NCBI GenBank assembly: GCA_010092885.1
Contig: JAADYX010000017.1
Span: 9,764 to 73,763, forward strand
Length of the DNA: 64,000 nucleotides
Origin: Chloroflexota bacterium
GTDB lineage: Bacteria > Chloroflexota > Anaerolineae > Aggregatilineales > UBA3940
Direction of reading: 5' to 3'
The notes under the pieces were generated by a model, which was given only the letters and a program-made list of their open reading frames with translations, made no database searches and had not been told where the DNA came from. Numbering within the stretch: position 1 is the first letter of the stretch; every line of letters begins with the position of its first letter. Position numbers and translations under genes: made by a program. Shown here piece after piece: positions 625 to 39,924 of this stretch.

Positions 625-625
625 G

Positions 626-5097: not shown

Positions 5098-5158
5098 TGG
5101 GAAGCCCCCTCTCGTTTGGCATTAACGCTGGTATTTTAACCAACCCCCTACCTCTTTT

Positions 5159-5830: not shown

Positions 5831-5920
5831 GGTATGTTCCTTTTTCTGCTGGTGTGACGTTTGATTCTCAGTGTACCGCAACAACGCGACGGGGAGAGGT
5901 TCTCAGCCGGATGGGGAGTA

Positions 5921-5929
5921 TGCTATAGT
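5921..5929 (+). promoter_or_regulatory. Extended -10 promoter element TGcTATAGT upstream of the R2lox-like gene
   Basis: TG at 5921-5922 and TATAGT at 5924-5929. GAGG SD at 5949-5952. ATGs at 5957 and 5960. Confidence 0.4.
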
Positions 5930-5956
5930 GTAGTGAAAATATCCCTATGAGGTGAC

Positions 5957-6877: not shown

Positions 6878-6883
6878 CGGAGG

Positions 6884-6910
6884 GTGGGCACGGACCGCGT
6901 GCCCACTTTT
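6884..6910 (+). terminator. Intrinsic terminator after the R2lox-like gene
   Basis: Perfect 8-bp stem GTGGGCAC (6884-6891) / GTGCCCAC (6899-6906), 7-nt loop, then TTTT. Confidence 0.6.
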
Positions 6911-8658: not shown

Positions 8659-8665
8659 AGCGCCC

Positions 8666-15056: not shown

Positions 15057-16274
15057 ATGCGTGTTCTGATGCTCTCGACTTACGATCGGCTGGGTGGTGC
15101 GGCTATCGCGGCACGACGGCTGCATGACGGCCTGCGTGCGGCCGGGGTTGACTCCCTGATGCTGGTCCACGAAAAAACCGATCCCGATGCGAGCGTTATC
15201 TCCGCATACAGCAGACTCAACACAGTGGAGCGGTTCCGGTTGTCACAGTCGATACGCAGACATGGTGCGGCACTGGGCAGGTATCCGGAGCGCACCACAG
15301 CGGATTGGAGTATCAACCGCTGGGAGAACGGTCTGCGGACCGCTATTGAGAGTTTGCAGCCTGATATCCTGCATCTGCATTGGGTTGGCAATGGCTATAT
15401 GCCGCTCCAAACTCTCAGCAGGATAAGGGTGCCTGTGGTCTGGACGCTGCATGATATGTGGGCCTTCACCGGAGGATGCCACTATACGGATGGGTGCGAA
15501 CAGTACACCGACTCGTGTGGATGCTGTCCGCAGTTGGCATCGGATACCGTGCGCGATCTGAGCCGCAGCGGCTGGATGCTGAGGCAGCGCCATCTGCCAG
15601 TTGAACGGCTGACCGTTGCCTCCCCAAGCCGGTGGCTTGCGGACTGCGCACGCAAGAGCAGCCTGCTTGCCAAAGCCGTCATTGACGTTATTCCCAACGG
15701 CCTGAGCCTTGACCGGTTCCGTCCTTTTGACAGGTCACTGGCCCGCAGCGTATTTGGTTTGCCCCACGATACACCGCTCATCCTATTCGGCGCAGTCAAC
15801 AGCACATCCACGCCCCGTAAAGGCTATGTATACCTAAAGCAAATGCTGCTTGATCTGCCGGCTGGCGTGCACACTGTGGTGTTTGGCACGTTTGACGGTC
15901 TGGACCTTCCAAGTTCCACAACATCTGTTGGTGTATTGCGCGACGAGCACACAATGGCCCTGCTCTATGCCGCTGCCGATGTTTTTGTGGCACCCTCCAC
16001 GCAGGACAATTTACCCAACACCGTCATGGAAGCGCTGGCCTGCGGCACACCTGTCGTCGCTTTCCGGATTGGTGGTATGCCGGATTTGATCACCCACGGC
16101 CAAACAGGGTATCTGGCCCAACCGTTCGATACGACCGATCTCGCGGCGGGCGTGACGGCCTGTCTGGAAAATCCATCATGGGGGCAAGCCGGTCGCCGCG
16201 ATGCCGAAGCGCGATATGGCATCGATCATGCGGCTCGTCGTTATTTGGAACTGTATAGATCGCTGCTGCCATGA
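15057..16274 (+). CDS. GT-B fold glycosyltransferase (GT4-like)
   Basis: Start at MRVLMLSTYDRLGGAAIAARRL. C-terminal motif STQDNLPNTVMEALACGTPVVAFRIGGMPDLI. The upstream in-frame extension (14946) overlaps the divergent MFS gene. Confidence 0.8.
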   Translation: MRVLMLSTYDRLGGAAIAARRLHDGLRAAGVDSLMLVHEKTDPDASVISAYSRLNTVERFRLSQSIRRHGAALGRYPERTTADWSINRWENGLRTAIESLQPDILHLHWVGNGYMPLQTLSRIRVPVVWTLHDMWAFTGGCHYTDGCEQYTDSCGCCPQLASDTVRDLSRSGWMLRQRHLPVERLTVASPSRWLADCARKSSLLAKAVIDVIPNGLSLDRFRPFDRSLARSVFGLPHDTPLILFGAVNSTSTPRKGYVYLKQMLLDLPAGVHTVVFGTFDGLDLPSSTTSVGVLRDEHTMALLYAAADVFVAPSTQDNLPNTVMEALACGTPVVAFRIGGMPDLITHGQTGYLAQPFDTTDLAAGVTACLENPSWGQAGRRDAEARYGIDHAARRYLELYRSLLP

Positions 16275-17086
16275 CCCACCCCCCCAGTATCAGCCTGGTG
16301 ACACCGTCCTACAATCAAGGGGTCTATCTTGAGGAGACGATCCGTTCCGTGGTGGAGCAGGGCTATCCGGACTTGGAATACATCGTCATGGATGGCGGTT
16401 CAACCGACAACTCGCCAGCGATTATCAAGCGGCACGCTGACAGCATCGCCTACTGGGTCAGTGAACCAGACAACGGACAGGCCGACGCGATCAACCGGGG
16501 CTTGGAGCGATCAACGGGTGAGGTGATGGGCTGGCTGAACAGCGATGATCGCCTGATGCCAGGCGCACTCTCCCTTGTGGGCCTTATCTTCGCAGCCTAT
16601 CCGAGCGTGATGTGGATCACAGGGCGAAGCGCCATCATGGATGCACACGGGCGATTGGCGGCTATCGGGCCCCGCCGCGGCTTTTTCCGTCGCGCCATCC
16701 GGAATGGACGCTACCACAATCGTGGCTTTGGCTTCATCCAGCAGGAAGGCACATTCTGGCGGCGTGCTCTTTGGGAAAAGGCAGGCGGGCTTGACCCGAA
16801 ACGGTACTACACCGCAGATTTTGAACTTTGGCAGCGCTTTGCCGCCCATGCCGATCTGGTGATGGTCCAGTCCATCCTGGCGATGTTCCGGCAGCATGAC
16901 CAACAGAAGTCCGCTGACCAGTCAGGCTACTATGCTGAGATCGGTGTTTCCGGCCCGGCAGTTTCCCAACGCATGCGACGGTGGGTACTACATCCGATTG
17001 CAGCACGCTTCGCACCGCAGATCGTTTACGAAAGTGGCCGATGGCAGTTCAAGCCAGGCCGGTATTTTCGTCCAGGGTTGGGATGA
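16271..17086 (+). CDS. GT-A fold glycosyltransferase (GT2)
   Basis: SLVTPSYNQGVYLEETIRSVVEQGYPDLEYIVMDGGSTDNS. ATGA overlap with the upstream gene. Confidence 0.85.
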   Translation: MTHPPSISLVTPSYNQGVYLEETIRSVVEQGYPDLEYIVMDGGSTDNSPAIIKRHADSIAYWVSEPDNGQADAINRGLERSTGEVMGWLNSDDRLMPGALSLVGLIFAAYPSVMWITGRSAIMDAHGRLAAIGPRRGFFRRAIRNGRYHNRGFGFIQQEGTFWRRALWEKAGGLDPKRYYTADFELWQRFAAHADLVMVQSILAMFRQHDQQKSADQSGYYAEIGVSGPAVSQRMRRWVLHPIAARFAPQIVYESGRWQFKPGRYFRPGLG

Positions 17087-17118
17087 TACGGTATAGTCGC
17101 TGGTCGTGAGGGAGGGCT

Positions 17119-17943
17119 ATGTCTAGCTATGTGATCACCACGCAGAACATAACCAACAGTCGGCGCATCCGCCGCTTTCTGAGTCTGCTTTTCACCTTGG
17201 CCAGCCGCGACATCCGATCACGCTACCGGCGATCAGTACTCGGGCCAATCTGGAGTATCCTGCAGCCGCTTATCCTGATGGTAGTGTTCACGCTGCTGCG
17301 CAGCCTGACCGGTCTGCGTGAAGGTGGTGTGACAACCGACCTCATGTTGACCTATACGGTATTGGTACCGTGGCAGTTCTTCAGCAACAGCATCAATCGG
17401 GCCGGGCCAAGCGTCATCGGGAACGGGTCCATCATGCGGAAGATTCGCGTTCCGCGTGAGATGTTCCCTGTGGTTGGCGTCATGACGGCGGGCTTCGATT
17501 TTGCCATGTCAGCCCTTGTTCTCACCGGCATGGTGATCGCGCTGGGCGAACCGGTCAACCTCCTGGCATTGCTATGGCTGCCGGTGTTGATGATTATGTT
17601 GACGCTGCTTGCGCTGGGGGTCGGCATGATCATCGCTTCCTTTGGCGTATACCGGCGCGACTTCATCCTGGCGAGCGGTTTTTTCACCCAGATCTGGCTG
17701 TATGCCAGCCCGATCATCTATACGCTTGAAGAAGCCCAAGGGCAGCTTTCCGAGACGTGGCAAACCGTTTACCTTCTCAACCCGACCGTTGGCATCCTTG
17801 AAGGGTTTCGCAGTGTGCTTGCTGATGGCACTGCGCCGGATTTGGATCTGTTAGCGACATCCGTACCGGCAACACTTATCTTCTTCTTGCTCGGGTGGGG
17901 GATCTACCGATACATGTCACAGTATTTTGCGGATGTGCTATGA
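17119..17943 (+). CDS. wzm: ABC-2 type polysaccharide/teichoic-acid export permease (Wzm/TagG-like)
   Basis: N-terminal signature LASRDIRSRYRRSVLGPIWSILQPLILM followed by six hydrophobic helices. GGGAGGG SD. Confidence 0.85.
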   Translation: MSSYVITTQNITNSRRIRRFLSLLFTLASRDIRSRYRRSVLGPIWSILQPLILMVVFTLLRSLTGLREGGVTTDLMLTYTVLVPWQFFSNSINRAGPSVIGNGSIMRKIRVPREMFPVVGVMTAGFDFAMSALVLTGMVIALGEPVNLLALLWLPVLMIMLTLLALGVGMIIASFGVYRRDFILASGFFTQIWLYASPIIYTLEEAQGQLSETWQTVYLLNPTVGILEGFRSVLADGTAPDLDLLATSVPATLIFFLLGWGIYRYMSQYFADVL

Positions 17944-19151
17944 GCAGCAGCGCGATAGAAGTCAACAACGTGTGGAAGCGCTACGGTCTGCCCATCCCTG
18001 AGGGACTGCGCAAACCATTGAACCGTTTGTCTGGCAAGATCGCCATGCCGGATCAATGGGCTCTACAGGATGTCTCCTTCAAGGTGGAACGCGGCGACGC
18101 ACTCGGCATCATAGGGCGTAATGGGGCCGGTAAAAGCACCATGCTGAAGGTACTCGCCGGCGTGACCCCGGCCACCCGCGGCACGGTTCGGATGCATGGC
18201 ACAATCTTCCCTATGATCGAGCTGAATGCCGGCATCAACCCGGAGCTCACCGGGCGTGAGAACATCTACCTGCTAGGCACCATCATGGGTTTTACGACGC
18301 AGGAGATCAGCGACCGGTATGATGTCATCGCCGACTTCACCGAGCTGGAAGAATGGCTTGAAAAGCCGGTCTGGCAGTATTCAAGCGGCATGAAAGCACG
18401 TCTCGGCTTTGGTGTCGCGATGAACATTGACGCCCAAATCCTGCTGATTGATGAAGTGTTGGCTGTAGGCGACCTACCGTTTAAGAAGAAATGCTACAAC
18501 CGGTTGGAAGCACTGACCAACGAAGGAGCAGCTGTTGTCTTTGTATCGCACAACATCCGGCAGGTGGAACGTTTATGCGACCACGTGATCTACCTGAAAA
18601 AGGGGGAGATCATTCTGGCTGGCGATTCACAGACTGTCTGCCAGGAATACAACATCCGGGCTGTGCGCGAGTATCAAGAAACGATCTCAGAAGAACTGAG
18701 TGATGGGGCGGTCATCCGGTCCAGTGGTGAGATGGAACTGGTTCGTGTCGAAACGCTTGATCTGACAGGTCGGGTTACGGAAACATTCAACCCTGGCGAT
18801 CCATTCAAGATCCGCATCTGCTACGACGCGCACGAGCGCATAGAAAACCCCATTATTGGGGCGAACATCATGACCAGCGAGATGATCAAGCTGACGAACT
18901 TTCAGATCGTCCCCTCTATGGTTGAACAGCCATTTTATGCTCTAGAGGGCGAAGGGGTCATCGAGTTCACAATTCCACACATGCCGTTCAACCCGGATTG
19001 CTACACTGTTGGGGTCACTATCCGCAGTGAGAACGGACGGCGCATTATCAGTGGGCAGAGCCTGGCCACCTTCTGTGTTGAATATGATCCGGATTACGCT
19101 ACGCGGTTAGGTCTTGTGCATCTTGACTTCTCATGGGATCTGAACCCTTGA
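17940..19151 (+). CDS. wzt: ABC export ATPase (Wzt/TagH-like) with C-terminal glycan-recognition (Wzt_C-like) domain
   Basis: Walker A GRNGAGKST, signature YSSGMKARLGF, Walker B ILLIDEVLAVGD. An extra ~150-aa beta-rich C-terminus at 18702-19148. ATGA overlap with wzm. Confidence 0.85.
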   Translation: MSSSAIEVNNVWKRYGLPIPEGLRKPLNRLSGKIAMPDQWALQDVSFKVERGDALGIIGRNGAGKSTMLKVLAGVTPATRGTVRMHGTIFPMIELNAGINPELTGRENIYLLGTIMGFTTQEISDRYDVIADFTELEEWLEKPVWQYSSGMKARLGFGVAMNIDAQILLIDEVLAVGDLPFKKKCYNRLEALTNEGAAVVFVSHNIRQVERLCDHVIYLKKGEIILAGDSQTVCQEYNIRAVREYQETISEELSDGAVIRSSGEMELVRVETLDLTGRVTETFNPGDPFKIRICYDAHERIENPIIGANIMTSEMIKLTNFQIVPSMVEQPFYALEGEGVIEFTIPHMPFNPDCYTVGVTIRSENGRRIISGQSLATFCVEYDPDYATRLGLVHLDFSWDLNP

Positions 19152-20089
19152 GCGACAGGTATCTGTTTGTATTGCATCATCCGCGTTCAGGCTCCACGCT
19201 GCTGCAGGTGATGCTGACCAGCCATCCGTCAATCAGCGTGGCACCGGAGTCACGTGCTTTCGTAAAGCTGATACGACACCTTCCTGTCACCCGGCCACTC
19301 GAGGCCAGTGAGGTTGCAAGAGCACAGCGCTTTATAACCGAAGACACCAAGCTAAATGCCTGGAATATTGATCTTGGGGACTATTTTTCGCGTGTGGCAG
19401 AGTACCAGCCCGGGATCACGGTACGGGAGATGCTGCATGATATGTTGGCTGTTTATCGTCGTGCTGTTTCGCCGGGGGCCACTATTATCGGCATCAAGCG
19501 CGAGCCACTCATCGAACTAACCGATGAGTTGAGCACATTGTTTCCAGGCTGCCAGTTCATCTACACGTACCGAGATCCACGTGCCGCCTCAGCTTCTGCT
19601 CTAAAGCACCTCGAGAAGGTGCATAGTCTGGAAGAAGCCAGCCTAAAGTGGTGGTGGTGGATGCGAAGGGGATCGAAACATCGAAGAACCTATCAGGGCA
19701 GATGGTTCGACGTGTGCTACGAAGAACTGGTCACTACACCAGAAAAGGTAGCCCGCGCGATATGCGCCTACCTTGGAGTTGATTATTCTGACACTATGCT
19801 GAGACACCATGAATTCAACGCGAATTTTGAACTGGTTGCCTCCGGATATGAAGATATGCACACTCATACGATGCAGCCGATCAGCGCGACACATATAGAC
19901 AAATGGCGGCAAGAACTCTCGCACGAGGACATTGCCACCGTGGAGGCAATAGCAGGACCTCAAATGCGCCAGCGCGGCTATATGCCCGAGGGCTCCATTT
20001 CGTTTGCCAAACACCTCAAGGCCGCTTGGATGCGCTACAAGTATCGCAGGTCCTGGCAGACTCGGAATTTTAGGACTGCCAATGCGTGA
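19133..20089 (+). CDS. PAPS-type sulfotransferase (class 1/3-like)
   Basis: 5'-PSB-like loop FVLHHPRSGSTLLQVML and 3'-PB-like YTYRDPRAASAS. Overlaps the wzt stop. Confidence 0.7.
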   Translation: MGSEPLSDRYLFVLHHPRSGSTLLQVMLTSHPSISVAPESRAFVKLIRHLPVTRPLEASEVARAQRFITEDTKLNAWNIDLGDYFSRVAEYQPGITVREMLHDMLAVYRRAVSPGATIIGIKREPLIELTDELSTLFPGCQFIYTYRDPRAASASALKHLEKVHSLEEASLKWWWWMRRGSKHRRTYQGRWFDVCYEELVTTPEKVARAICAYLGVDYSDTMLRHHEFNANFELVASGYEDMHTHTMQPISATHIDKWRQELSHEDIATVEAIAGPQMRQRGYMPEGSISFAKHLKAAWMRYKYRRSWQTRNFRTANA

Positions 20090-20978
20090 CGACACCCTCA
20101 TCGTCCTCAGACAAAGCGGTGAACGCACACGCTTTGCCTCACGCGAGTCGGCTTTGATGCAGGTTCCTGAAGCGCAGGTCGTTACCGTCAGTGAAGCGCC
20201 CTTTACCCGGACATTGCGCCGGGCATATGAAGTCGGTCTGGAGCGTGGTTTCCGCTGGACTCTCTGCCTCGACGCTGATGTCATCCTGAGGCCGGGCGGT
20301 TTGGATACGCTTGTTCAGGCTGCTGAACAGTACGATGATACGCTGTTCGTCCTGCAGGGTTTGTGTTGGGATAAGTTCTTCGGGGGGCCTAAATCCACCC
20401 CGCCGTATCTTTATCGCACCAAACATCTGGAAGTCGCTATACCGCTGATCCCGGGTGACGATGAGGTTAAACGCCCTGAGTCCAATACCAACGGACAGAT
20501 GGCCGCCAAAGGATACCTGCGCGAACAGATTGATGCTGTGATCGGCCTGCATGGCCACGAACAGTTTTATAGGGACGTATTCCGGGTCTGTTTTTCACAC
20601 GCGATCAAGCATTCGCGGTACATGGCCGCCCTCCAACCGATGTGGAAACGCAATGCTCGGGAAGATCCCGATTTTCTGATCGCGCTGTGGGGGGCGCAGA
20701 CCGGCGACCTGTTCAAGACCGGCGTGGCTCTGGATAGACGCACGTTCGCCCAACTACATGAGGTGCTGCCCATGTTCGGTATGGCAGAGAAAGAAGACGG
20801 GCCGTTTCCTTTTGATGTTGAAGCCGTGGGTGAGATGCTCGACAAGCACACACCACCCCCCGAATACTACGAATTTCTGCAGATCCTCGACAATGTTGGG
20901 CAGCCGCCTGGTGTGTTGCACCATGTCGGCTCTTTTGTTCAAAAGCTCGGTAACCGCATTCAAGGTCTGGCGAAGTAG
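20082..20978 (+). CDS. Putative GT-A fold (nucleotide-diphospho-sugar) transferase, family unclear
   Basis: Start at MRDDTLIVL (ATG 20082). DxD-like CLDADVIL. No stronger motif recognised. Confidence 0.4.
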   Translation: MRDDTLIVLRQSGERTRFASRESALMQVPEAQVVTVSEAPFTRTLRRAYEVGLERGFRWTLCLDADVILRPGGLDTLVQAAEQYDDTLFVLQGLCWDKFFGGPKSTPPYLYRTKHLEVAIPLIPGDDEVKRPESNTNGQMAAKGYLREQIDAVIGLHGHEQFYRDVFRVCFSHAIKHSRYMAALQPMWKRNAREDPDFLIALWGAQTGDLFKTGVALDRRTFAQLHEVLPMFGMAEKEDGPFPFDVEAVGEMLDKHTPPPEYYEFLQILDNVGQPPGVLHHVGSFVQKLGNRIQGLAK

Positions 20979-22866: not shown

Positions 22867-22869
22867 CCC

Positions 22870-23883: not shown

Positions 23884-23887
23884 TGGA

Positions 23888-24988: not shown

Positions 24989-26004
24989 CTACCCGTGTCA
25001 GTGTCCTGATGAGCGTTCACAATAATGGGCCTTATCTGCGCAAAGCAGTGGAGAGCATTCTCAACCAGACACTGCGCGACTTCGAGTTCATCATCATCGA
25101 TGATGGCTCGACAGACGAAACCCCCCACATCCTGGATTCCTATGATGACCCTCGTATAATCCGCCTGCACAACGAGACTCCGCAGCGGCTGGCAGCGGCA
25201 CTCAATCAGGGGTTGAAGGTAGCCCGTAGTCCCTACATCGCGCGGATGGATGGCGATGATATCGCCCTGCCGGAACGGCTGGAAAAACAGGCTGCCTTCC
25301 TCGATGCTCACCCCGACCATGGCGTTGTAGGCACACAGGCCCGCATCATTGACCTTCAGGACCGTGACCAGGGTCCATTTCTGGATTACCCTAGGCCGTC
25401 CAGTCTGGTAGCCTGGCATATCCTCACCGGGAACCCACTGATCCACCCGAGCACCTTTATGCGTACTGATGTGCTCCGGTCGGTGGGCGGATACGATCCA
25501 GCTTACCCGGTGGCACAAGATCAGGCCTTGTGGACGCGCCTGTTATTTGTCACCCGTCTGGCCAATTTGCCGGATACGCTGCTTTTGTACCGGCGCCACC
25601 CGGACGCGGCTTCACAGGTCCACAATCACCATCAGCGGGATATCCTTTACACGGTGCGCACGCGCGCAGCCAGCCGGCTTCTGGGGCGCGACGTCGATCC
25701 CCAAGCGCTTCGGCGCATTCGGGTGTCCTCCGCACGGGGTGTCGAACGGTTTACACGCGCAGACGCAGAGGCCAGCATCGATCTCCTCCTGCATCTGTTT
25801 GAGGCCATGGATCCATTCTTCCTTTCAGATGAGAAAAGTATCGTTCGGCAGGAGATGATCAGCCAGATCGCCCGTCTCAGCTGGCGTGTACCGCCCGGCT
25901 TGCTCAACCCTGAGCAGGCACGCCGCACTTACTGGCAGCAGATCGCTCCGGCTTGGCTGCGGCAGATCAGGCACTGGAAGGATCGCCGCCATGCCACGCG
26001 TTAG
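24985..26004 (+). CDS. GT-A fold glycosyltransferase (GT2)
   Basis: VSVLMSVHNNGPYLRKAVESILNQTLRDFEFIIIDDGSTDET and MDGDDIALPERL (DxD). Confidence 0.85.
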   Translation: MTTRVSVLMSVHNNGPYLRKAVESILNQTLRDFEFIIIDDGSTDETPHILDSYDDPRIIRLHNETPQRLAAALNQGLKVARSPYIARMDGDDIALPERLEKQAAFLDAHPDHGVVGTQARIIDLQDRDQGPFLDYPRPSSLVAWHILTGNPLIHPSTFMRTDVLRSVGGYDPAYPVAQDQALWTRLLFVTRLANLPDTLLLYRRHPDAASQVHNHHQRDILYTVRTRAASRLLGRDVDPQALRRIRVSSARGVERFTRADAEASIDLLLHLFEAMDPFFLSDEKSIVRQEMISQIARLSWRVPPGLLNPEQARRTYWQQIAPAWLRQIRHWKDRRHATR

Positions 26005-26941
26005 CTTGCTGATGGCCACGGTCGACAACGGGGCCCTGATGGCGCGCTCTGTGGACAGCCTGTTGGCCCAAACCTACTCTGATTTTGAACTCATCTTTAT
26101 CGGGAGCAATCCGCCTGCCGGGTCATCTATCCGGTTGAACACGGTAGAGACAGGCACATTCCGCGAGGGGCTTGCTGCTGCTACCGGTGAGGTGGTTGGA
26201 TGGGTGCGAGCCGGTGATGCCTTCTCTCCCAACCGCCTGAGCCTACAGCTCGCGGCCATGGACGCCAACCCCCAGATTGGGGTCGTAGGAACGTTCACAA
26301 ACCTGTTGGATGCCTCTGGCCGGACCGCTGACATACTGAGGACTGAGACCCATCACAATCTGATCGCATGGTCCCTCCCTTTTGTCGCGGAGCCGTTAGT
26401 TTCCGTCACAACAGCGCTCATGCAGCGCGCACTCGTAGAACAGCTCAACGGCACCGAGTTAGATGACGCCCAACTAGGCTGGCATCTGCTGCCACAGACA
26501 CAGTTTATGGTTCTACCAGAAGCGCTCTGTTCAAGTCGGGGTGGTCACCTGGGAGCCGATGCAAATGCCCGGCTGGCTGTGCTCGAAGCCCTTCTGGATC
26601 AGCCTCTTGATCAAGAAGGGCGGTGGTTGGTCCAAACTGGTGAAGTCTCGCCCGGGTTGAAGGTACAGCAGGCAGAATTGGTCACTGGCCTCATTCTTGC
26701 TACATTTGAAGCTATGGATGCGCAAGGATTTTTCATCGACGAGAACCGGGGCATGCTGCGGGCCGCACTGATCGAACGGTTGGTGCAGGCCGCCCAGAAC
26801 ACAACTGTCTATGATCAGCTCATTGCGGATGGCGATAACAGGCTGCTGGCTCTGCGCTTCTGGCAGCGACGGCTGCCCGATCCGTGGTGGCGACTGCCTT
26901 TTTGGTTGCTCCATCCTATGTATGCCATGCGGAGACACTAA
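25991..26941 (+). CDS. GT2-like paralogue with degenerate acidic motifs
   Basis: Aligns by eye with the preceding GT2, but DFEFIIIDDGSTDET becomes DFELIFIGSNPPAGS and MDGDDIALPERL becomes RAGDAFSPNRL. Start at MPRVSLLMATV (ATG 25991). Confidence 0.55.
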   Translation: MPRVSLLMATVDNGALMARSVDSLLAQTYSDFELIFIGSNPPAGSSIRLNTVETGTFREGLAAATGEVVGWVRAGDAFSPNRLSLQLAAMDANPQIGVVGTFTNLLDASGRTADILRTETHHNLIAWSLPFVAEPLVSVTTALMQRALVEQLNGTELDDAQLGWHLLPQTQFMVLPEALCSSRGGHLGADANARLAVLEALLDQPLDQEGRWLVQTGEVSPGLKVQQAELVTGLILATFEAMDAQGFFIDENRGMLRAALIERLVQAAQNTTVYDQLIADGDNRLLALRFWQRRLPDPWWRLPFWLLHPMYAMRRH

Positions 26942-26944
26942 GCT

Positions 26945-28069
26945 GTGCGTATTCTATTCTTCACTGACAAGCTGACTCGTGGCGGCGCCGAAAAGCAAAT
27001 CGCGCAGCTTGCCCAGCCTCTACACGCAGCCGGACACACGATCTGCGTGATGACCATTCGACCCGAGGGATACTGGGCAGACTGGCTTAAACTGCAGGGC
27101 ATCCGCGTGGAACAACAGGATCTGGTGCTCTGGCACGAAGGGCGTGCTCGCTCCCTGCTGAAGATCGCACGGTTGGCCCTGGCTTTCCGCCGGTTCCGTC
27201 CCGATGTGGTGATCAGCAACAAGTACCATAACTCGATCTGGGCGATGCTGGCCGGCAGGCTGGCAGGCGTTCGGCTGCGGATCGCGTACCGGGTGGCCCT
27301 CTCATATGAGCAGCAGAATCTCCCTGCTCGACTGCGCCGGTTTTCCTACGATGCAACATCAGCCTTTGTCGGAAACAGCAAGGCTGTTATCGATAGCTTG
27401 GTCCAACGCGAGGGTGTTCCACAGGAACGCTGCCGCGTGATTTACCAGGCTGTCGAGACACCAACAGTGGATCCAGCCGATGGCGACGCCTTTCGGACCG
27501 AGTACGATATCCCCCCCGATGTAACCGTCATTGGTCTGCTGGCCAACCTGCATCCCATCAAGAACCATAGTATGCTCATCCGGGCGGTGGCCATGCTGTG
27601 CAGCGACTATCCGGATGTATGGAGTGTGTTCGCCGGGAACACGGATCAGGATCAGGCCTATACGCAGCACCTCAGGGCGGAGATTGAAACGCATGGTCTT
27701 GCGGACCGGGTTGTCCTAACCGGGCGTCTGAGTGATACACGCGGCTTTCTGGCTGCTATCGACATCGGTGTACTGTGTTCCCATGCCGAAGGGTTTAGCA
27801 ACGCCCTTCTTGAGTATATGGCGTATGGCAAGGTACCGGTTGCCACAGCAGTCGGTGGCAACCCGGAAGCCATAACGCACCGCGAGACAGGCTTTCTCAT
27901 TCCGCCAAACGATGACAAAGCTCTGGCCGAAACCCTTGCTGTACTGTTGAGCGATGACCGCCAGCGAGCACAAATCGGGCAGCAGGCGCGGCAGTATGTC
28001 GAAAAGACGTTCACAGCAGCACGTGAATATGAGCAATGGGCGACACTATTGGAGGTGCACAATGGCTGA
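26945..28069 (+). CDS. GT-B fold glycosyltransferase (GT4)
   Basis: GTG start, MRILFFTDKLTRGGAEKQ. CSHAEGFSNALLEYMAYGKVPVATAVGGNPEAITHRETGFL. Confidence 0.85.
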   Translation: MRILFFTDKLTRGGAEKQIAQLAQPLHAAGHTICVMTIRPEGYWADWLKLQGIRVEQQDLVLWHEGRARSLLKIARLALAFRRFRPDVVISNKYHNSIWAMLAGRLAGVRLRIAYRVALSYEQQNLPARLRRFSYDATSAFVGNSKAVIDSLVQREGVPQERCRVIYQAVETPTVDPADGDAFRTEYDIPPDVTVIGLLANLHPIKNHSMLIRAVAMLCSDYPDVWSVFAGNTDQDQAYTQHLRAEIETHGLADRVVLTGRLSDTRGFLAAIDIGVLCSHAEGFSNALLEYMAYGKVPVATAVGGNPEAITHRETGFLIPPNDDKALAETLAVLLSDDRQRAQIGQQARQYVEKTFTAAREYEQWATLLEVHNG

Positions 28070-28994
28070 GCTCGATATTATGGTATGCGCCTTTAACGAG
28101 GAAGAGAATCTGCCACGCCTGCTCAAGAGTTTGCAGGAGCAAACCGTATTGCCCGACCGGTTTCGCGTTGTACTGGTAGACAACAACTCGACTGATGATA
28201 CTGTCGCAGTGGCACAATCCTTTAAGGACAGTCTGCATATCGACATCTTCACTGAGCCACGTTCTGGGAAGAACTATGCGTGCAATACGGGTCTGGCGCA
28301 GTGCACAACACCTTATATTGCCTGCACAGATGCAGATGTGAAAGTTGAGACCGATTGGGTGGAGAAGATCCTTGCAATAGCCGAGCAGGATAGGCCACAC
28401 GCATTTTGTGGCCCTTACCGCCCTTACCATATTCAGGAACCACCTGAGTGGTACCGGCCAACATACAACAGCAAGGACCTTGGCGCTGAACCCCGTGATC
28501 TGCGGGAAAACGAATTTGTCAGTGGACCCAACATGGTGTGGCGGCGTGACGTTCTGGAACAGATTGACGGTTTCCGTGTGGATGTTGGCCTCGTAAAGCG
28601 AGGGTTGGCACGCGGTGACGAAACCAATGTGCAGGTGCGGGCTCAGCGTGAGATCCCTGGCTTTGTCTGTCGATGGTATCCAGAATTGGTGGTGTACCAT
28701 CTAACGCGTCCGGAGACTTACTCCTTATGGTATTGGACGCGCCGGATGCTGGCAATGGGCTATACACAGCATCAGGTCAACGAAAAGCGGCCAGAAGATG
28801 TGAGCAGCCTGCGTGCTGCTGCGCGTGCTCTTCGAGAGGCAGCACGCTATCTATACGACACGACGATAGGCACTCTACGCCGTGACCGCGACCGTTATCC
28901 TTATCCCCAGAACTACTACTACGAACACACGATGAAGCACCTATGGGAGCTGGGCGGACATCTGGCCCAGGTGACCAACCATGCTGCTCGATAA
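28062..28994 (+). CDS. GT-A fold glycosyltransferase (GT2)
   Basis: LDIMVCAFNEEENLPRLLKSLQEQTVLPDRFRVVLVDNNSTDDT and CTDADVKV (DxD). ATG 28062 overlaps the upstream gene by 8 nt. Confidence 0.85.
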   Translation: MAELDIMVCAFNEEENLPRLLKSLQEQTVLPDRFRVVLVDNNSTDDTVAVAQSFKDSLHIDIFTEPRSGKNYACNTGLAQCTTPYIACTDADVKVETDWVEKILAIAEQDRPHAFCGPYRPYHIQEPPEWYRPTYNSKDLGAEPRDLRENEFVSGPNMVWRRDVLEQIDGFRVDVGLVKRGLARGDETNVQVRAQREIPGFVCRWYPELVVYHLTRPETYSLWYWTRRMLAMGYTQHQVNEKRPEDVSSLRAAARALREAARYLYDTTIGTLRRDRDRYPYPQNYYYEHTMKHLWELGGHLAQVTNHAAR

Positions 28995-29745
28995 GATCCG
29001 CGAACGAGCTGACCGGGTCAGGCATTGGTGGTTGGCACGCGGCTACCGGCTGCCCGGCGGATACCGGCGTATCTATCACTACCACATCCGTAAGACAGCC
29101 GGAACCAGTGTGAATTTCATGTTCTATGGTCTGCGGGGAGAGAAACCCTACGATGTACACCAACGAATGGTCGACAGTCGGGGCAGATACACAGTCAGCG
29201 GCGGGTTGATCTTCAACGCGTGGCGCCCCGATCTTGCCCAGCGCGGACACTATTTCTACGCCTCGTCACATGCTCCAGCCTACAACCTCGCTCTACCAAC
29301 GGACACCTTCACGCTGACCTGTTTCCGCGATCCGCAGAAGCGCTTGATCTCGTTTTACAAAATGCTCGCGGCCTACCGGCGTGATAATGTGCAGCACCCC
29401 GTGATGGGTCAATACGGTCACCATCTGCAAGGGGGATTTGCCTCCTTTGTGCGTACACTGCCTGCTGAACGCATCAATGATCTGACGGCCATGTTTTCCC
29501 CCACGCTTGATCCGGATGAGGCCTTCGAGCGAGTCGCCGCGTGTTCCTGCATCCTTTTCGTGGAGGATCTGGAAGCCGGTGTGGCTGAATTGGCCCATAC
29601 GCTGGATCTGCCGCTTCAATTCCGCCATTCACGCCGTTCGCGCTATGAGTTCACTGAAGGCACCGATGAGGCCTTAAGCATTCTGCAAGACCGGCAGGCC
29701 CCGGATCGCGAACTGTATGCACGGGTGAAAGCTGCCTATGGCTGA
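28981..29745 (+). CDS. Sulfotransferase (family-2-like, HxxKTxGTS class)
   Basis: YHYHIRKTAGTSVNFMF (PAPS 5'-phosphosulfate loop of the family-2 type) and LTCFRDPQKRLISFY. Confidence 0.65.
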   Translation: MLLDKIRERADRVRHWWLARGYRLPGGYRRIYHYHIRKTAGTSVNFMFYGLRGEKPYDVHQRMVDSRGRYTVSGGLIFNAWRPDLAQRGHYFYASSHAPAYNLALPTDTFTLTCFRDPQKRLISFYKMLAAYRRDNVQHPVMGQYGHHLQGGFASFVRTLPAERINDLTAMFSPTLDPDEAFERVAACSCILFVEDLEAGVAELAHTLDLPLQFRHSRRSRYEFTEGTDEALSILQDRQAPDRELYARVKAAYG

Positions 29746-30769
29746 GCCGCGTGTTACGTTCGGCATCCTCGTTTTGAACGGTGAACCGTTCACCCGGTAT
29801 ACATTGCGCAGCCTTTACCCCTTCGCGCATGAGATCATCGTGGTAGAGGGCGCAACCCCTGCCGCGGCTAACATTGCCACCGCAGACGGCCACAGTCGCG
29901 ATGGTACATTGGATGTACTTCAGCGCTTCAAGGCGCAGGAGGACCCGGATGACAAACTTCAGTTAGTCATCCGCGATGGCTTTTGGTCGGAAAAAGACGA
30001 GATGTCACAGGCATATGCACGACGCGCAACCGGTAACTATCTGTGGCAGGTTGATATCGATGAGTTCTACCGGCCTGAGGACATGCGCCACATCCTGGCC
30101 ATGCTCGCTGCCGATCCGACGATTACTGCGATGTCCTTCAAACAGCTTACTTTTTGGGGTGCGCCTGACATTGTGGTGGACAGCTGGTTCCTACAGCGTG
30201 GCGCGGATGTCTATCACCGGTTGTTCAAATGGGCGCCGGGCTACACGTACGCCACCCATAGACCGCCGACTGCGCTGGACGAACGGGGTCACGATCTGCG
30301 CACCCAGCACTGGATCAGTGCGGATACGCTTGCTGGGCAGGGGATCTACCTCTATCACTACTCGCTGCTGTTTCCCAAGCAGGTGATCGAAAAGTGCGAT
30401 TACTATGCCCATGTCGATTGGACTGAGCGCAGTCAAGCGTTGGATTGGGCCGAGAATGCCTACCTCCATCTGAAGCAGCCTTTCCGGGTGCACAATGTGT
30501 ATGAGACCCCGGGTTGGCTAGAGCGCTACTCAGGGCCGCATCCAGCGCAGATCGAGGCGCTGTGGGCCGATATCCGGAGGGGTGATGTAACGGTCGAAAC
30601 CCGTGCGATGGATGATGTCGACCGGCTGCTGAGCCGCTGGTGGTATCGTCTGGGGCGGGCCATTCTGAAGCGTACCCAGCGCATCGACCAGCTCTTGCGA
30701 AGCGTGTGGCATCTGCTTGGTGCGCCGGTGCGCCTGGTCAACCGTCTTCGTCGAGCCGCAGCAGAATAG
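29738..30769 (+). CDS. GT2-like glycosyltransferase (divergent)
   Basis: VTFGILVLNGEPFTRYTLRSLYPFAHEIIVVEGA...SRDGTLDVL and WQVDIDEFY (DxD-like). Last gene of the operon. Its 3' end overlaps the convergent TPR gene by 32 nt. Confidence 0.55.
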   Translation: MAEPRVTFGILVLNGEPFTRYTLRSLYPFAHEIIVVEGATPAAANIATADGHSRDGTLDVLQRFKAQEDPDDKLQLVIRDGFWSEKDEMSQAYARRATGNYLWQVDIDEFYRPEDMRHILAMLAADPTITAMSFKQLTFWGAPDIVVDSWFLQRGADVYHRLFKWAPGYTYATHRPPTALDERGHDLRTQHWISADTLAGQGIYLYHYSLLFPKQVIEKCDYYAHVDWTERSQALDWAENAYLHLKQPFRVHNVYETPGWLERYSGPHPAQIEALWADIRRGDVTVETRAMDDVDRLLSRWWYRLGRAILKRTQRIDQLLRSVWHLLGAPVRLVNRLRRAAAE

Positions 30770-38484: not shown

Positions 38485-38504
<20 letters not shown>

Positions 38505-39834: not shown

Positions 39835-39924
39835 AAATGCTACACTCTGGGTGAACTCACTATCGATTGTGTCGAAAAGTTTAGTCTTCTCACAATCGTC
39901 TTGCAACCTCAATAGGGTGCTGTT

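What the first reader, a model, noticed from the sequence alone, without database searches (positions are those of the whole stretch)
15057..30769. 16-gene translationally coupled glycan operon with a Wzm/Wzt exporter and three sulfotransferases: candidate sulfated surface-polymer pathway
Seen in sequence: 16 same-strand genes, and 14 of the 15 junctions overlap or are separated by 4 nt or less. They encode ten GT-A/GT-B glycosyltransferase-like proteins, an ABC-2 permease, its ATPase, one unknown protein and three sulfotransferase-like proteins. The sulfotransferases fall into two motif classes: HHPRSGST...YRDPR and LQRSGTT...KRDPR, versus HIRKTAGTS...FRDPQKRLISFY. Established: these loops are the PAPS 5'-phosphosulfate and 3'-phosphate binding signatures, and Wzm/Wzt export lipid-linked polymers assembled in the cytoplasm. 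Inference: the product is a multiply sulfated heteroglycan, possibly a phosphate-free polyanionic wall polymer playing a teichoic-acid-like role. As far as I know, few bacterial sulfated glycans have a defined gene cluster. The window contains no priming phosphoglycosyltransferase, PAPS synthesis genes or nucleotide-sugar genes.
Basis: partly seen in the sequence, partly recalled or inferred. Interest (0 to 1): 0.8.

Follow-up and report, generated by a model that had tools for sequence, protein, structure and literature searches.

The report
Sulfotransferase-bearing Wzm/Wzt glycan operon, Anaerolineae
A 16-gene operon in an uncultured Anaerolineae (Chloroflexota) bacterium most likely builds a surface sugar chain, adds sulfate to it inside the cell and exports it through an ABC transporter; it is a rare variant of a common, mostly unstudied cluster type that normally carries methyltransferases instead of sulfotransferases.

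Summary
There are 16 co-directional genes at 15057-30769. Fourteen of the 15 junctions overlap or are 4 nt or less apart. The genes encode Wzm, a Wzt with a C-terminal carbohydrate-binding domain (CBD), three sulfotransferases with intact PAPS motifs, ten glycosyltransferase-like proteins and one unknown protein.

New here:
- The unknown protein, g8, is a confidently modelled (alpha/alpha)6 toroid. It belongs to a widespread family without a Pfam model that sits in glycosyltransferase clusters of bacteria and archaea.
- g6 has a GT-A fold and also no Pfam model. Elsewhere its domain is fused to sulfotransferase, methyltransferase, radical-SAM or GT4 domains.
- The backbone wzm-wzt-X-g8-g9-g10-g11 recurs in other uncultured bacteria, and there X is usually a SAM methyltransferase. 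In one locus the methyltransferase is fused to the Wzt CBD.
- Sulfotransferases replace methyltransferases only rarely: here, in L004, L093 and L101.

Best reading: a lipid-linked glycan is sulfated in the cytoplasm and then exported by Wzm/Wzt. The g5-g6-g7 module sits where related systems carry their capping enzyme, so it may form a sulfated chain-end cap. That step is inferred from gene position only.

The proposed teichoic-acid-like wall role has no support. No genes for PAPS synthesis, priming, ligation or nucleotide-sugar synthesis lie in the window. I rate it a new variant of a known kind, of moderate interest.

The parts
15057..16274 (+). g1: GT4 (GT-B) glycosyltransferase, first gene of the operon. 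About 100 nt of intergenic DNA separates it from the divergent MFS gene.
   Evidence: Pfam Glyco_trans_1_4 80 bits, Glyco_transf_4 48 bits. The N-terminus MRVLMLS begins at ATG 15057.
16271..17086 (+). g2: GT2 (GT-A) glycosyltransferase
   Evidence: Pfam Glycos_transf_2 84.9 bits. ATGA overlap with g1.
17119..17943 (+). g3: Wzm, the ABC-2 permease
   Evidence: Pfam ABC2_membrane 62.4 bits. The only protein of the operon with clear membrane segments. 45% identical to the Wzm of L006.
17940..19151 (+). g4: Wzt, the ABC ATPase with a C-terminal carbohydrate-binding domain (residues about 255-403)
   Evidence: Pfam ABC_tran 72.8 bits and Wzt_C 55.8 bits, cut-off 30.4. Best solved relative is full-length A. 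aeolicus Wzt (8dku/7k2t), E 3e-59.
19133..20089 (+). g5: Sulfotransfer_3-class sulfotransferase, overlapping the stop codon of wzt. It sits at the position where related clusters carry a methyltransferase.
   Evidence: Pfam PF13469 96.1 bits. Motifs HHPRSGST, GIK and YRDPR...S are conserved across relatives. A g5-like gene sits directly after wzt in L093. The C-terminal tail is basic.
20082..20978 (+). g6: GT-A-fold transferase of a large family with no Pfam model. Carries a DxD motif (LDADV, residues 63-67).
   Evidence: No Pfam, NCBIfam or PDB sequence hit. 1007 representative relatives. AlphaFold pLDDT 93.4; Foldseek matches SpsA, A64R, Fringe, IspD and KdsB. Domain fusions to ST, MT, radical-SAM and GT4 domains.
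20978..21844 (+). g7: Sulfotransfer_3-class sulfotransferase of a very rare subfamily
   Evidence: Pfam PF13469 93.4 bits. Only 3 clusters found in the 5.8-billion-protein search. In L002 the g7 homologue is followed by a g6 homologue. The ST domain of the ST-g6 fusion P0112 resembles g7.
21838..22866 (+). g8: (alpha/alpha)6-toroid protein of unknown function, a conserved partner of g10-like and g11-like glycosyltransferases
   Evidence: No Pfam hit. 90 relatives. AlphaFold pLDDT 96.2. Foldseek gives only fold-level matches, TM 0.43-0.49. All 80 GTDB loci scanned hold BLAST matches to other genes of this operon, nearly all glycosyltransferases.
22870..23883 (+). g9: divergent GT-B (GT4-like) glycosyltransferase
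   Evidence: Pfam sub-threshold, 16 bits. hhalign of the g9 family against GT4: 99.2%, E 3e-19. Orthologues in L006 (41%) and L013 (46%).
23888..24988 (+). g10: GT4 glycosyltransferase, part of the conserved backbone
   Evidence: Pfam Glycos_transf_1 114 bits. Orthologues at 43-48% identity in L006 and L013. g10-like genes occur in 47 of 80 g8 loci.
24985..26004 (+). g11: GT2 glycosyltransferase, part of the conserved backbone. Motifs DDGSTD and DGDD are intact.
   Evidence: Pfam Glycos_transf_2 122.8 bits. g11-like genes occur in 53 of 80 g8 loci. Motifs located.
25991..26941 (+). g12: GT2 paralogue of g11 that lacks both acidic motifs, so it is probably not catalytic
   Evidence: Pfam 34.8 bits, partial match. 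hhalign 99.5% to GT2. GSNPPAG replaces DDGSTD and RAGD replaces DGDD.
26945..28069 (+). g13: GT4 glycosyltransferase
   Evidence: Pfam Glycos_transf_1 120.7 bits, Glyco_transf_4 65.9 bits.
28062..28994 (+). g14: GT2 glycosyltransferase
   Evidence: Pfam Glycos_transf_2 107.8 bits. GC is low, 0.537.
28981..29745 (+). g15: Sulfotransfer_2-class sulfotransferase (the class of animal carbohydrate sulfotransferases)
   Evidence: Pfam PF03567 26.1 bits, cut-off 22, E 1e-5. Motifs HIRKTAGTS and FRDPQKRLISFY. No PDB or NCBIfam match.
29738..30769 (+). g16: divergent GT-A (GT2-like) glycosyltransferase with a basic amphipathic C-terminus; last gene of the operon
   Evidence: Pfam sub-threshold, 21.2 bits. 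hhalign 94.5% to GT2. DIDE motif. Its end overlaps the convergent TPR gene by 32 nt.

Best explanation
The operon encodes an ABC-transporter-dependent (Wzm/Wzt) pathway for a sulfated surface glycan in an uncultured Anaerolineae bacterium.

Proposed course:
1. A priming enzyme encoded elsewhere starts the chain on a polyprenyl-phosphate carrier at the cytoplasmic face of the membrane.
2. Soluble or peripheral glycosyltransferases (g1, g2, g9-g11, g13, g14, g16; g12 is probably non-catalytic) extend it. The g8-g9-g10-g11 block is a backbone shared with many related clusters.
3. Three cytoplasmic PAPS-dependent sulfotransferases (g5, g7, g15) add sulfate esters before export.
4. The g5-g6-g7 module lies directly after wzt. 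Related clusters carry a SAM methyltransferase at that position, and E. coli O9a carries the terminator WbdD there (E. coli gene order from my own knowledge). I therefore propose that g6 adds a terminal sugar and that g5 and/or g7 sulfate it.
5. This would make a sulfated non-reducing-end cap that stops elongation and is read by the Wzt carbohydrate-binding domain, which licenses export through Wzm. g15 adds further sulfate, on the chain or on the cap.

Shown: gene content, family membership, predicted cytoplasmic location, and the swapping of modules between relatives.
Inferred: sulfation of a glycan, and all steps of order.
Speculative: the cap role (about 0.35) and the final acceptor, which is unknown (protein, lipid or wall).

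The confidence of 0.6 refers to the core claim: a glycan sulfated in the cytoplasm and exported by Wzm/Wzt.
For: - Family assignments and intact PAPS motifs for g5, g7 and g15.
- Wzm plus a Wzt carrying Wzt_C. The best solved relative is the CBD-bearing A. aeolicus Wzt.
- Wzt proteins that contain a CBD need a chain-end cap. Known caps are methyl, methyl-phosphate and Kdo (PMC9445017).
- No enzyme of the operon has a clear membrane segment or signal sequence; g2 has one borderline internal hydrophobic stretch.
- Tight translational coupling links the sulfotransferases to the glycosyltransferases and the exporter.
- The scaffold wzm-wzt-X-g8-g9-g10-g11 is conserved. In L006, X is a SAM methyltransferase plus a B12 radical-SAM protein. 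In L013, from an Anaerolineae genome, three methyltransferases stand where this window has three sulfotransferases.
- Of 40 related metagenomic wzt loci with 3 kb or more of downstream sequence, 26 have a methyltransferase within 6 kb and only 2 have a sulfotransferase.
- In L104 the methyltransferase is fused to the C-terminus of the Wzt CBD.
- A sulfotransferase directly follows wzt in L093 and L101 as well.
- g6-type domains occur fused to a g7-like sulfotransferase (P0112) and to methyltransferase, radical-SAM and GT4 domains. In L002 a g7 homologue is adjacent to a g6 homologue.
- Another Anaerolineae MAG (L004) has a Wzt 54% identical to g4, encoded beside five sulfotransferase-like genes.
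- A distant g5 relative (P0012) lies beside an ATP-sulfurylase/APS-kinase fusion, a CysQ-like gene and a Poly_export gene.
- g5 and g7 give weak matches to the Nod-factor carbohydrate sulfotransferase NoeE.
Against: - There is no biochemical evidence of any kind.
- The window has no PAPS-synthesis genes, and the rest of the genome could not be read.
- No priming enzyme, ligase or acceptor is known.
- The closest solved structures to g5 and g7 are protein-tyrosine sulfotransferases and polyketide sulfotransferases, not carbohydrate enzymes.
- g15 is only just above its Pfam cut-off.
- The cap idea rests on gene position and analogy only. The CBDs of sulfotransferase-associated Wzt proteins do not group together: L004 is 44% identical to the g4 CBD, but L093, L101 and L104 are 22-25%, the same as the methyltransferase loci.
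- The second-closest CBD (L006, 36%) belongs to a methyltransferase cluster.
- Many methyltransferase-type relatives carry 3-5 methyltransferases interleaved with glycosyltransferases. That suggests decoration along the chain, not only a cap.
- g6 could be a cytidylyltransferase-like enzyme rather than a glycosyltransferase.
Confidence: 0.6

Rival explanations
1. Sulfation occurs along the repeating units, giving a multiply sulfated, polyanionic heteropolymer that is attached to the wall and does the job of teichoic acids without phosphate. The Wzt CBD recognises some other, unsulfated feature.
For: - There are three sulfotransferases of two classes, and one of them (g15) lies far from wzt.
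- The relative L004 has five sulfotransferase-like genes.
- Methyltransferase-type relatives interleave several methyltransferases with glycosyltransferases, which looks like decoration along the chain.
- CBD sequence does not covary with the presence of a sulfotransferase.
Against: - No LCP ligase, TagO/A/B/F-like gene or other wall-linkage gene lies in the 64 kb.
- TagH models score far below their cut-offs.
- Nothing here bears on a physiological role like that of teichoic acids.
- Ten mostly single-domain glycosyltransferases and a CBD-bearing Wzt fit a capped glycan of defined length at least as well as a long polyanion.
Confidence: 0.2
2. The product is not a polymer. It is a sulfated oligosaccharide of defined length on a protein (as in S-layer or other protein O-glycosylation in Gram-positive-type bacteria) or on a glycolipid. 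It is exported by Wzm/Wzt and transferred by an enzyme encoded elsewhere.
For: - Ten separate glycosyltransferase-like genes rather than a few multi-domain polymerases.
- No ligase or polymer-attachment gene in the window.
- An MGDG-synthase-like glycolipid glycosyltransferase and a PIG-L deacetylase lie 9-15 kb downstream.
- From my own knowledge: the S-layer glycan clusters of Geobacillus and Paenibacillus use Wzm/Wzt with a CBD and a methyl cap.
Against: - No oligosaccharyltransferase and no S-layer gene was found in the window.
- The glycolipid genes are separated from the operon by housekeeping genes.
- The tools used here cannot tell a polymer from an oligosaccharide.
Confidence: 0.2
3. 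The sulfotransferases act on something other than the glycan, such as a protein tyrosine, a lipid or a small molecule, or they are inactive or lack a PAPS supply. The exported glycan would then be unsulfated.
For: - The best solved relatives of g5 and g7 are tyrosylprotein sulfotransferases and the CurM/OLS sulfotransferases.
- Some g5 relatives are fused to TPR domains, which hints at protein substrates, and a TPR gene abuts the operon.
- No PAPS genes lie in the window.
- In Aeromonas salmonicida, a sulfotransferase-domain gene next to wzt has no matching sulfate in the known O-antigen (PMC4483657).
Against: - The sulfotransferases are translationally coupled inside a glycosyltransferase and exporter operon.
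- Sulfotransferase-g6 (GT-A) fusions and sulfotransferase/g6 adjacency occur elsewhere.
- PAPS motifs are intact in all three proteins.
- Among solved structures, g5 and g7 match almost only TPST and polyketide (CurM/OLS-type) sulfotransferases, so that resemblance carries little information.
- g5 and g7 give weak NoeE (carbohydrate sulfotransferase) matches.
Confidence: 0.1

Closest known systems
ABC-transporter-dependent O-polysaccharide systems with a CBD-bearing Wzt and a chain-end cap (E. coli O8/O9a with WbdD; Aquifex aeolicus WzmWzt with a 3-O-methyl cap; Klebsiella O12 / Raoultella with a Kdo cap)
   Same: - Wzm plus a Wzt carrying a Wzt_C domain. The best solved relative is A. aeolicus Wzt.
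- All assembly enzymes are cytoplasmic or peripheral.
- A modifying-enzyme gene lies directly after wzt, as wbdD does in O9a (my own knowledge).
- The published rule is that Wzt proteins with a CBD export capped chains (PMC9445017).
   Different: - The modifying enzymes here are sulfotransferases. No sulfate cap has been described; the known caps are methyl, methyl-phosphate and Kdo.
- The host is an Anaerolineae bacterium, so the glycan is probably not an LPS O-antigen.
- There is no WbdD-like coiled-coil ruler, no WaaL ligase and no priming enzyme in the window.
Uncharacterised cluster family 'wzm-wzt(CBD)-methyltransferase-g8-GT4-GT2' in environmental bacteria
   Same: - Orthologous Wzm (45%), Wzt (47%), g8 (52%), g9 (41-46%), g10 (43-48%) and g11 (40-46%).
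- The same gene order.
   Different: - Those clusters carry one to five SAM methyltransferases, sometimes with a B12 radical-SAM enzyme. In L104 the methyltransferase is fused to Wzt.
- This window has no methyltransferase and three sulfotransferases plus g6.
- That cluster family has not itself been studied experimentally, as far as I could find.
Sulfated capsular polysaccharide clusters of marine Gammaproteobacteria (Cobetia marina KMM 1449, Vibrio sp. KMM 8419) and the synechan (xss) cluster of Synechocystis
   Same: Sulfotransferase genes are embedded with glycosyltransferases and an exporter. In Cobetia the exporter is also an ABC transporter (PMC11766843).
   Different: - Cobetia uses KpsMTED, a group-3 capsule exporter, with a Kdo-lipid primer. 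Its cluster contains its own PAPS-synthesis genes and nucleotide-sugar genes.
- Synechan uses Wzx/Wzy (my own knowledge).
- None of these has a CBD-bearing Wzt.
- This window has no PAPS genes or nucleotide-sugar genes.
Rhizobial carbohydrate sulfotransferases (NodH, NoeE, LpsS) with the NodIJ ABC-2 exporter
   Same: - PAPS-dependent sulfation of a lipid-linked or lipo-oligosaccharide in the cytoplasm, followed by export through an ABC-2 transporter.
- g5 and g7 give weak NoeE matches. g4 matches NodI models at E 1e-28.
   Different: - The matches are far below the equivalog cut-offs (38 against 500 bits).
- Nod factors are chito-oligosaccharides made by NodC, not by ten glycosyltransferases.
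- NodI has no CBD.

Membership tests
PAPS-dependent sulfotransferases, Sulfotransfer_3/Sulfotransfer_1 type (g5, g7) | Profile score above the curated family threshold | tested here: met
   PF13469: 96.1 bits (g5) and 93.4 bits (g7), cut-off 27. PF00685: 37 and 41 bits, cut-off 22.
PAPS-dependent sulfotransferases, Sulfotransfer_3/Sulfotransfer_1 type (g5, g7) | 5'-phosphosulfate-binding loop (xRSG[ST]T) and 3'-phosphate-binding motif (RDPR...S) | tested here: met
   g5: PRSGST 17-22, RDPRAASAS 147-155. g7: QRSGTT 12-17, RDPRSILRS 116-124. R18, G20, S21, K122, R147, D148, R150 and S155 are invariant in the alignment of 8 relatives.
PAPS-dependent sulfotransferases, Sulfotransfer_3/Sulfotransfer_1 type (g5, g7) | Demonstrated PAPS binding and sulfotransfer, and identity of the acceptor | not testable with these tools
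   This needs enzymology. Solved relatives are only TPST and CurM/OLS, so they say nothing about the acceptor.
Sulfotransfer_2 (carbohydrate sulfotransferase type) for g15 | Profile score above threshold, plus the PK(T/S)xGTS and RDPxxRxxSxY motifs | tested here: met
   PF03567: 26.1 bits against a cut-off of 22, E 1e-5, covering residues 31-223. This is marginal. Motifs RKTAGTS 37-43 and RDPQKRLISFY 116-126 are present. There is no PDB or NCBIfam support.
Wzm/Wzt ABC-transporter-dependent glycan export, CBD-dependent (capped) subtype | ABC-2 permease, plus an ATPase with a C-terminal Wzt_C carbohydrate-binding domain | tested here: met
   g3: PF01061 62.4 bits. g4: PF00005 72.8 bits and PF14524 55.8 bits, cut-off 30.4. 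The alignment to A. aeolicus Wzt extends into the CBD.
Wzm/Wzt ABC-transporter-dependent glycan export, CBD-dependent (capped) subtype | A dedicated chain-terminating (capping) enzyme whose product the CBD binds | tested here: inconclusive
   The candidate is g5-g6-g7. Support is positional: a methyltransferase sits at this site in relatives, L104 has a Wzt-CBD-methyltransferase fusion, and a sulfotransferase follows wzt in L093 and L101. Against this, CBD sequence does not covary with sulfotransferase presence.
Wzm/Wzt ABC-transporter-dependent glycan export, CBD-dependent (capped) subtype | Polyprenyl-phosphate priming transferase (WecA/WbaP type) and a ligase or acceptor step | tested here: not met
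   Neither is found among the ORFs of 180 aa or more in the 64-kb window. They may be encoded elsewhere in the genome, which could not be read.
Teichoic-acid-like anionic wall polymer pathway | TagO/TagA linkage-unit enzymes, a TagB/TagF-type primase or polymerase, TagGH, and an LCP ligase to peptidoglycan | tested here: not met
   Only the generic ABC-2 exporter resemblance is present. The TagH NCBIfam models score 188 bits against a cut-off of 538, and 170 against 320. No LCP or Tag-type gene lies in the window.
GT-A glycosyltransferases (g6) | GT-A Rossmann-like fold with a DxD motif after the central strand | tested here: inconclusive
   The AlphaFold model (pLDDT 93.4) matches the GT-A enzymes SpsA, A64R and Fringe at E about 1e-5. 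It matches the cytidylyltransferases IspD and KdsB equally well. D64-x-D66 is invariant in 50 relatives. hhalign to the operon's GT2 proteins is not significant, 14%.

The most novel reading that the evidence does not exclude
A sulfate ester on the non-reducing terminal sugar acts as the chain-terminating, export-licensing cap that a Wzt carbohydrate-binding domain reads. The cap would be made by a sulfotransferase / GT-A / sulfotransferase module (g5-g6-g7) that has replaced the usual methyltransferase. This would be a fourth chemical class of cap, after methyl, methyl-phosphate and Kdo. It would also be the first evidence that cap modules are swapped as cassettes on a conserved glycan backbone, in a phylum (Chloroflexota) whose envelope glycans are almost unknown.
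Probability: 0.3. Interest if true: 0.7.

Novelty: new variant of a known kind. Interest (0 to 1): 0.5.

Why it matters
- Bacterial sulfated glycans with an assigned gene cluster are few. The ones I found are from Gammaproteobacteria and cyanobacteria.
- This locus would extend them to Anaerolineae and to the CBD-dependent Wzm/Wzt route. In that route the chemistry of the cap controls chain length and export.
- The methyltransferase-for-sulfotransferase swap on a conserved backbone gives a natural paired comparison (this window against L013 and L006). It can be used to ask how Wzt CBDs recognise caps and whether cap modules can be exchanged.
- The operon is compact at 15.7 kb, which makes it a candidate for heterologous production of sulfated glycans, provided the host supplies PAPS and a primer.
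- Two large families without a Pfam model (g8 and g6) gain a structural class and a consistent genomic context.

Tried and rejected
- GTDB genome scan with the g7 alignment: 89 pattern matches but no true relative. The source species is not among the representative genomes, so synteny in named relatives had to come from other queries.
- Metagenome scan with g5 plus P0005: no relatives found. The 8-sequence g5 alignment was too divergent to use.
- The 76,945-bp source contig could not be retrieved. The 13 kb beyond the window and the rest of the genome, including any PAPS genes, therefore remain unread.
- PDB profile search with the g6 family: nothing even at E 10.
- PDB sequence search with g15: nothing meaningful.
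- The promoter and terminator scan gave counts within the range expected by chance, so it says nothing about operon boundaries.
- Rfam and tRNA scans of the window were empty.
- I tested whether sulfotransferase-associated Wzt CBDs form their own group. They do not.
- I considered reading Arg362 and the ENGRR loop of g4 as a sulfate pocket, because they align with His350 and the trap loop of A. aeolicus Wzt. I rejected this as evidence, because the methyltransferase-associated L006 is also basic at those positions.
- Literature searches for Anaerolineae or Chloroflexi sulfotransferase clusters and for the run SRR6462991 found nothing relevant. One study reported that its two Chloroflexi MAGs lacked PF13469.
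- Rejected: a prophage or defence-island origin. The flanks are housekeeping genes (recN, NAD kinase, pyrG, ruvB, gap, pgk).

Full report
**1. What is in the sequence**

The region 15057-30769 holds 16 open reading frames on the + strand. With the most plausible starts, eleven junctions overlap by 1-19 nt (ATGA- or GTGA-type overlaps are frequent). Three junctions have gaps of 3-4 nt. Only g2/g3 has a real spacer, 32 nt, which carries a GGGAGGG Shine-Dalgarno sequence.

The operon is bounded upstream by a divergent ATG22/MFS transporter gene (12890-14953, - strand). Downstream it is bounded by a convergent TPR gene (30738-32507, - strand) that overlaps the end of g16 by 32 nt. A consensus scan for promoters and terminators found no more sites than shuffled sequence gives.

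The rest of the window is housekeeping: recN, NAD kinase, pyrG, ruvB, queA, dprA, gap, pgk, iPGM, CofD, a large subtilase and M23 peptidases. It contains no PAPS-synthesis gene, no priming phosphoglycosyltransferase, no nucleotide-sugar gene, no LCP protein and no Wzy_C ligase. There is no tRNA and no Rfam match.

**2. Source**

Proteins identical to g7 and g8 are annotated in NCBI as coming from a 'Chloroflexi/Chloroflexota bacterium' MAG (locus tag GYB64_01130, contig of 76,945 bp). A second MAG of the same species, GCA_050331055.1, is labelled Anaerolineae. It carries g4-g10 at 99.7% DNA identity in the same order. The species is not among the GTDB representative genomes that were searched.

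**3. Family assignments**

Firm assignments from Pfam:

| Gene | Family | Score |
|---|---|---|
| g3 | ABC2_membrane (Wzm) | 62.4 bits |
| g4 | ABC_tran + Wzt_C | Wzt_C 55.8 bits, cut-off 30.4 |
| g5, g7 | Sulfotransfer_3 | 96 and 93 bits |
| g15 | Sulfotransfer_2 | 26.1 bits, cut-off 22 |
| g1, g10, g13 | GT4 | above cut-off |
| g2, g11, g14 | GT2 | above cut-off |
| g12 | GT2 | 34.8 bits, partial |

- The best solved relative of g4 is the full-length Wzt of Aquifex aeolicus, which carries a CBD (E 3e-59).
- g9 and g16 fall below the Pfam threshold. Profile-profile comparison ties them to GT4 (99.2%) and GT2 (94.5%).
- g12 is a paralogue of g11. It has lost both acidic motifs: GSNPPAG stands for DDGSTD, and RAGD for DGDD. 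It is probably a non-catalytic partner.
- All three sulfotransferases carry both PAPS-binding motifs. In g5 the key residues are invariant across eight relatives.
- Apart from Wzm, no protein of the operon has a clear membrane segment. g2 has one borderline internal hydrophobic stretch (residues 95-117). Several proteins end in basic amphipathic tails (g5, g11, g12, g16), as peripheral membrane enzymes often do.

**4. The two proteins with no Pfam match**

*g8.* It belongs to a family of roughly 360-residue proteins found in Anaerolineae, Desulfobacterales, Nitrospirae, Magnetococcales, Planctomycetes, Bacteroidota, many CPR lineages, and Asgard and DPANN archaea.
- An AlphaFold model built from 46 sequences is very confident (pLDDT 96.2) and shows an (alpha/alpha)6 toroid.
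- The PDB holds no close match. The best hits have E about 1e-3 and TM 0.43-0.49. They mix polysaccharide lyase, GH76, GH88, cellobiose 2-epimerase, squalene-hopene cyclase and prenyltransferase beta subunits. Only the fold class can be stated.
- All 80 GTDB loci scanned hold BLAST matches to other genes of this operon, nearly all glycosyltransferases. In 47 and 53 of them there are g10-like GT4 and g11-like GT2 genes, often directly downstream. A sulfotransferase is almost never present.

*g6.* It belongs to a large family: 1007 representative proteins at E 1e-3 or better.
- Invariant residues are R10, E14-R15-T16, D64-x-D66, P132, H157 and Q161; D158, E160, R131 and E133 are nearly invariant.
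- Its model (pLDDT 93.4) has a GT-A / nucleotide-diphospho-sugar transferase fold. It matches SpsA, PBCV-1 A64R and Fringe, and equally the cytidylyltransferases IspD and KdsB.
- In other proteins the g6 domain is fused to a sulfotransferase whose motifs resemble g7 (P0112), to a SAM methyltransferase (P0247), to a B12 radical-SAM domain plus GT2 (P0162), or to GT4 domains.
- In L002 a g7 homologue (57% identity) is followed by a g6 homologue (35%).
- These fusions and adjacencies link g6 functionally to a glycan-modifying enzyme.

**5. Relatives of the cluster**

Three comparisons carry the argument.

(a) *L006/L007* (JGI metagenome). The order is wzm (45% identity), wzt with CBD (47%), a SAM methyltransferase, a B12 radical-SAM protein, g8 (52%), a GT1, g9 (41%), g10 (43%), a methyltransferase, g11 (40%), then further GT2 genes.

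(b) *L013* (an uncultured Anaerolineae genome). The order is wzm, wzt, methyltransferase, g8 (43%), g9 (46%), methyltransferase, g10 (48%), methyltransferase, g11 (46%). It has three methyltransferases where this window has three sulfotransferases.

(c) *A scan of metagenomes with a Wzt alignment* returned 80 loci.
- Forty have at least 3 kb of sequence downstream of wzt. Of these, 26 have a methyltransferase within 6 kb, 2 have a sulfotransferase, and 12 have neither.
- A sulfotransferase directly follows wzt in L093 (g5-like, overlapping the wzt stop codon, PF13469 E 1.5e-30). The same is true of L101 (Sulfotransfer_1 E 1e-25, then a polysaccharide deacetylase, then a second sulfotransferase-like gene).
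- In L104 the methyltransferase is fused to the C-terminus of the Wzt CBD, giving one 620-residue protein.

In addition, another Anaerolineae MAG (L004, GCA_016931725.1) has a Wzt 54% identical to g4, a GT2 38% identical to g11, and five sulfotransferase-like genes.

The window is therefore a rare sulfotransferase variant of a common, essentially unstudied cluster family that normally carries methyltransferases. Lower GC in g4, g5, g7 and g14 (0.53-0.54, against 0.56-0.59 for the other genes of the operon and 0.56-0.62 for the flanking genes sampled) is consistent with later acquisition of those parts, but does not prove it.

**6. How it most likely works**

In studied systems, a Wzt with a CBD exports only chains whose non-reducing end has been capped. 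The cap stops elongation and is bound by the CBD. Known caps are methyl, methyl-phosphate and Kdo (PMC9445017; WbdD in PMC3482155).

Here the enzymes are cytoplasmic, PAPS is a cytoplasmic cofactor, and the sulfotransferases are translationally coupled to the glycosyltransferases and the exporter. Sulfation of the lipid-linked glycan before export is the straightforward reading (confidence about 0.6-0.65).

The g5-g6-g7 module occupies the position held by the methyltransferase in relatives. That methyltransferase is physically fused to the CBD in L104. The same position is held by wbdD in E. coli O9a (my own knowledge). I therefore propose that g6 adds a terminal residue and that g5 and/or g7 sulfate it to form the cap, with g15 adding further sulfate.

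This step is an inference from position and fusion patterns (about 0.3-0.35). Four points count against it:
- The CBDs of sulfotransferase-associated Wzt proteins do not cluster together.
- The second-closest CBD to g4 belongs to a methyltransferase cluster.
- Methyltransferase-type relatives often have several methyltransferases interleaved with glycosyltransferases, which looks like decoration along the chain.
- The acceptor, the primer and the PAPS supply are all unknown.

**7. Rival readings**

This is possible, but the teichoic-acid analogy has no support in the window.
- A sulfated oligosaccharide of defined length on a protein or a lipid. This is equally compatible with the data.
- Sulfation of a non-glycan substrate. 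This is suggested only by the TPST and CurM matches in the PDB. It is weakened by the operon context, by the sulfotransferase-GT-A fusions, and by a distant g5 relative that lies beside a PAPS synthase, a CysQ-like gene and a polysaccharide export gene.
- A cautionary precedent exists. In Aeromonas salmonicida, a sulfotransferase-domain gene lies next to wzt, yet no sulfate is known in its O-antigen (PMC4483657).

**8. Novelty and score**

Sulfated capsule clusters are published for Cobetia and for Vibrio, and the synechan cluster for cyanobacteria (PMC11766843, PMC11641403, PMC13125312). The Cobetia cluster carries a KpsMT ABC exporter and its own PAPS-synthesis genes. A sulfotransferase inside a polysaccharide cluster is therefore not new in kind.

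What differs here is the CBD-dependent Wzm/Wzt route, the Anaerolineae host, and the clear methyltransferase-to-sulfotransferase swap on a conserved backbone. I found no paper describing this, within the limits of the held library.

I rate it a new variant of a known kind, with interest 0.5. The sulfate-cap reading, if shown, would deserve about 0.7.

Noticed in passing
window 21838-22866 (g8); loci L010-L089: g8 defines a widespread family with no Pfam model, of about 360 residues. It is predicted with very high confidence to be an (alpha/alpha)6 toroid and has no close solved homologue. It occurs in many bacterial phyla, in CPR lineages, and in Asgard and DPANN archaea. All 80 loci scanned also hold matches to the operon's glycosyltransferases, often with g8 directly upstream of a GT4-GT2 pair.
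   Followed up: partly
window 20082-20978 (g6); proteins P0112, P0128, P0136, P0162, P0206, P0227, P0247: The g6 domain (GT-A fold, no Pfam model, about 1000 representative relatives) is a recurrent fusion partner. It is found fused to sulfotransferase, SAM methyltransferase, B12 radical-SAM plus GT2, and GT4 domains. This pattern is typical of the multi-domain terminator or polymerase enzymes of ABC-dependent pathways.
   Followed up: partly
L104 2880-4742: A single 620-residue protein combines ABC_tran, the Wzt_C carbohydrate-binding domain and a SAM methyltransferase. The exporter ATPase is thus fused to a likely capping enzyme.
   Followed up: no
L101 41-4308: wzt is followed by a Sulfotransfer_1 gene, a polysaccharide deacetylase and a second sulfotransferase-like gene. 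This arrangement recalls the N-deacetylase/N-sulfotransferase logic of heparan sulfate.
   Followed up: no
L004 (GCA_016931725.1, JAFGEG010000636.1) 90-8812: An Anaerolineae MAG cluster has a Wzt with a CBD (54% identical to g4), one GT2 and five sulfotransferase-like genes: three of Sulfotransfer_3 type and two of Gal-3-O-sulfotransferase / Sulfotransfer_2 type. It also has two unknown genes.
   Followed up: partly
window 25991-26941 (g12): This GT2 paralogue of g11 has lost both the DDGSTD and the DxD acidic motifs. It is probably a non-catalytic partner or scaffold.
   Followed up: partly
window 17940-21844 and 28062-28994: GC is lower in g4, g5, g7 and g14 (0.53-0.54) than in the rest of the operon and its flanks (0.56-0.62). 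This is consistent with later acquisition of the exporter and sulfotransferase parts.
   Followed up: no
window-wide, e.g. 10183-12300, 41406-45101, 6910-8658, 60907-62229: The flanking housekeeping and secreted proteins are strongly acidic (for example, the subtilase has 147 D+E against 32 K+R). This hints at a marine or saline-adapted organism. The operon's enzymes are charge-balanced.
   Followed up: no
window 30738-32507 (- strand): A TPR protein with an N-terminal membrane segment converges on the operon and overlaps g16 by 32 nt. TPR proteins also occur inside a related cluster (L010) and fused to g5-like sulfotransferases (P0017, P0019, P0020).
   Followed up: no
window 32504-35680 (- strand): An unusual 1058-residue fusion protein combines an amino-acid-permease-like membrane domain, two universal stress protein domains and DUF389.
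   Followed up: no
window 38485-41049 and 45800-46540: A GH1 glycosidase, an MGDG-synthase-like (GT28) glycolipid glycosyltransferase and a PIG-L-family deacetylase lie 8-15 kb downstream of the operon. They may relate to glycolipid or anchor synthesis, but housekeeping genes separate them from it.
   Followed up: no
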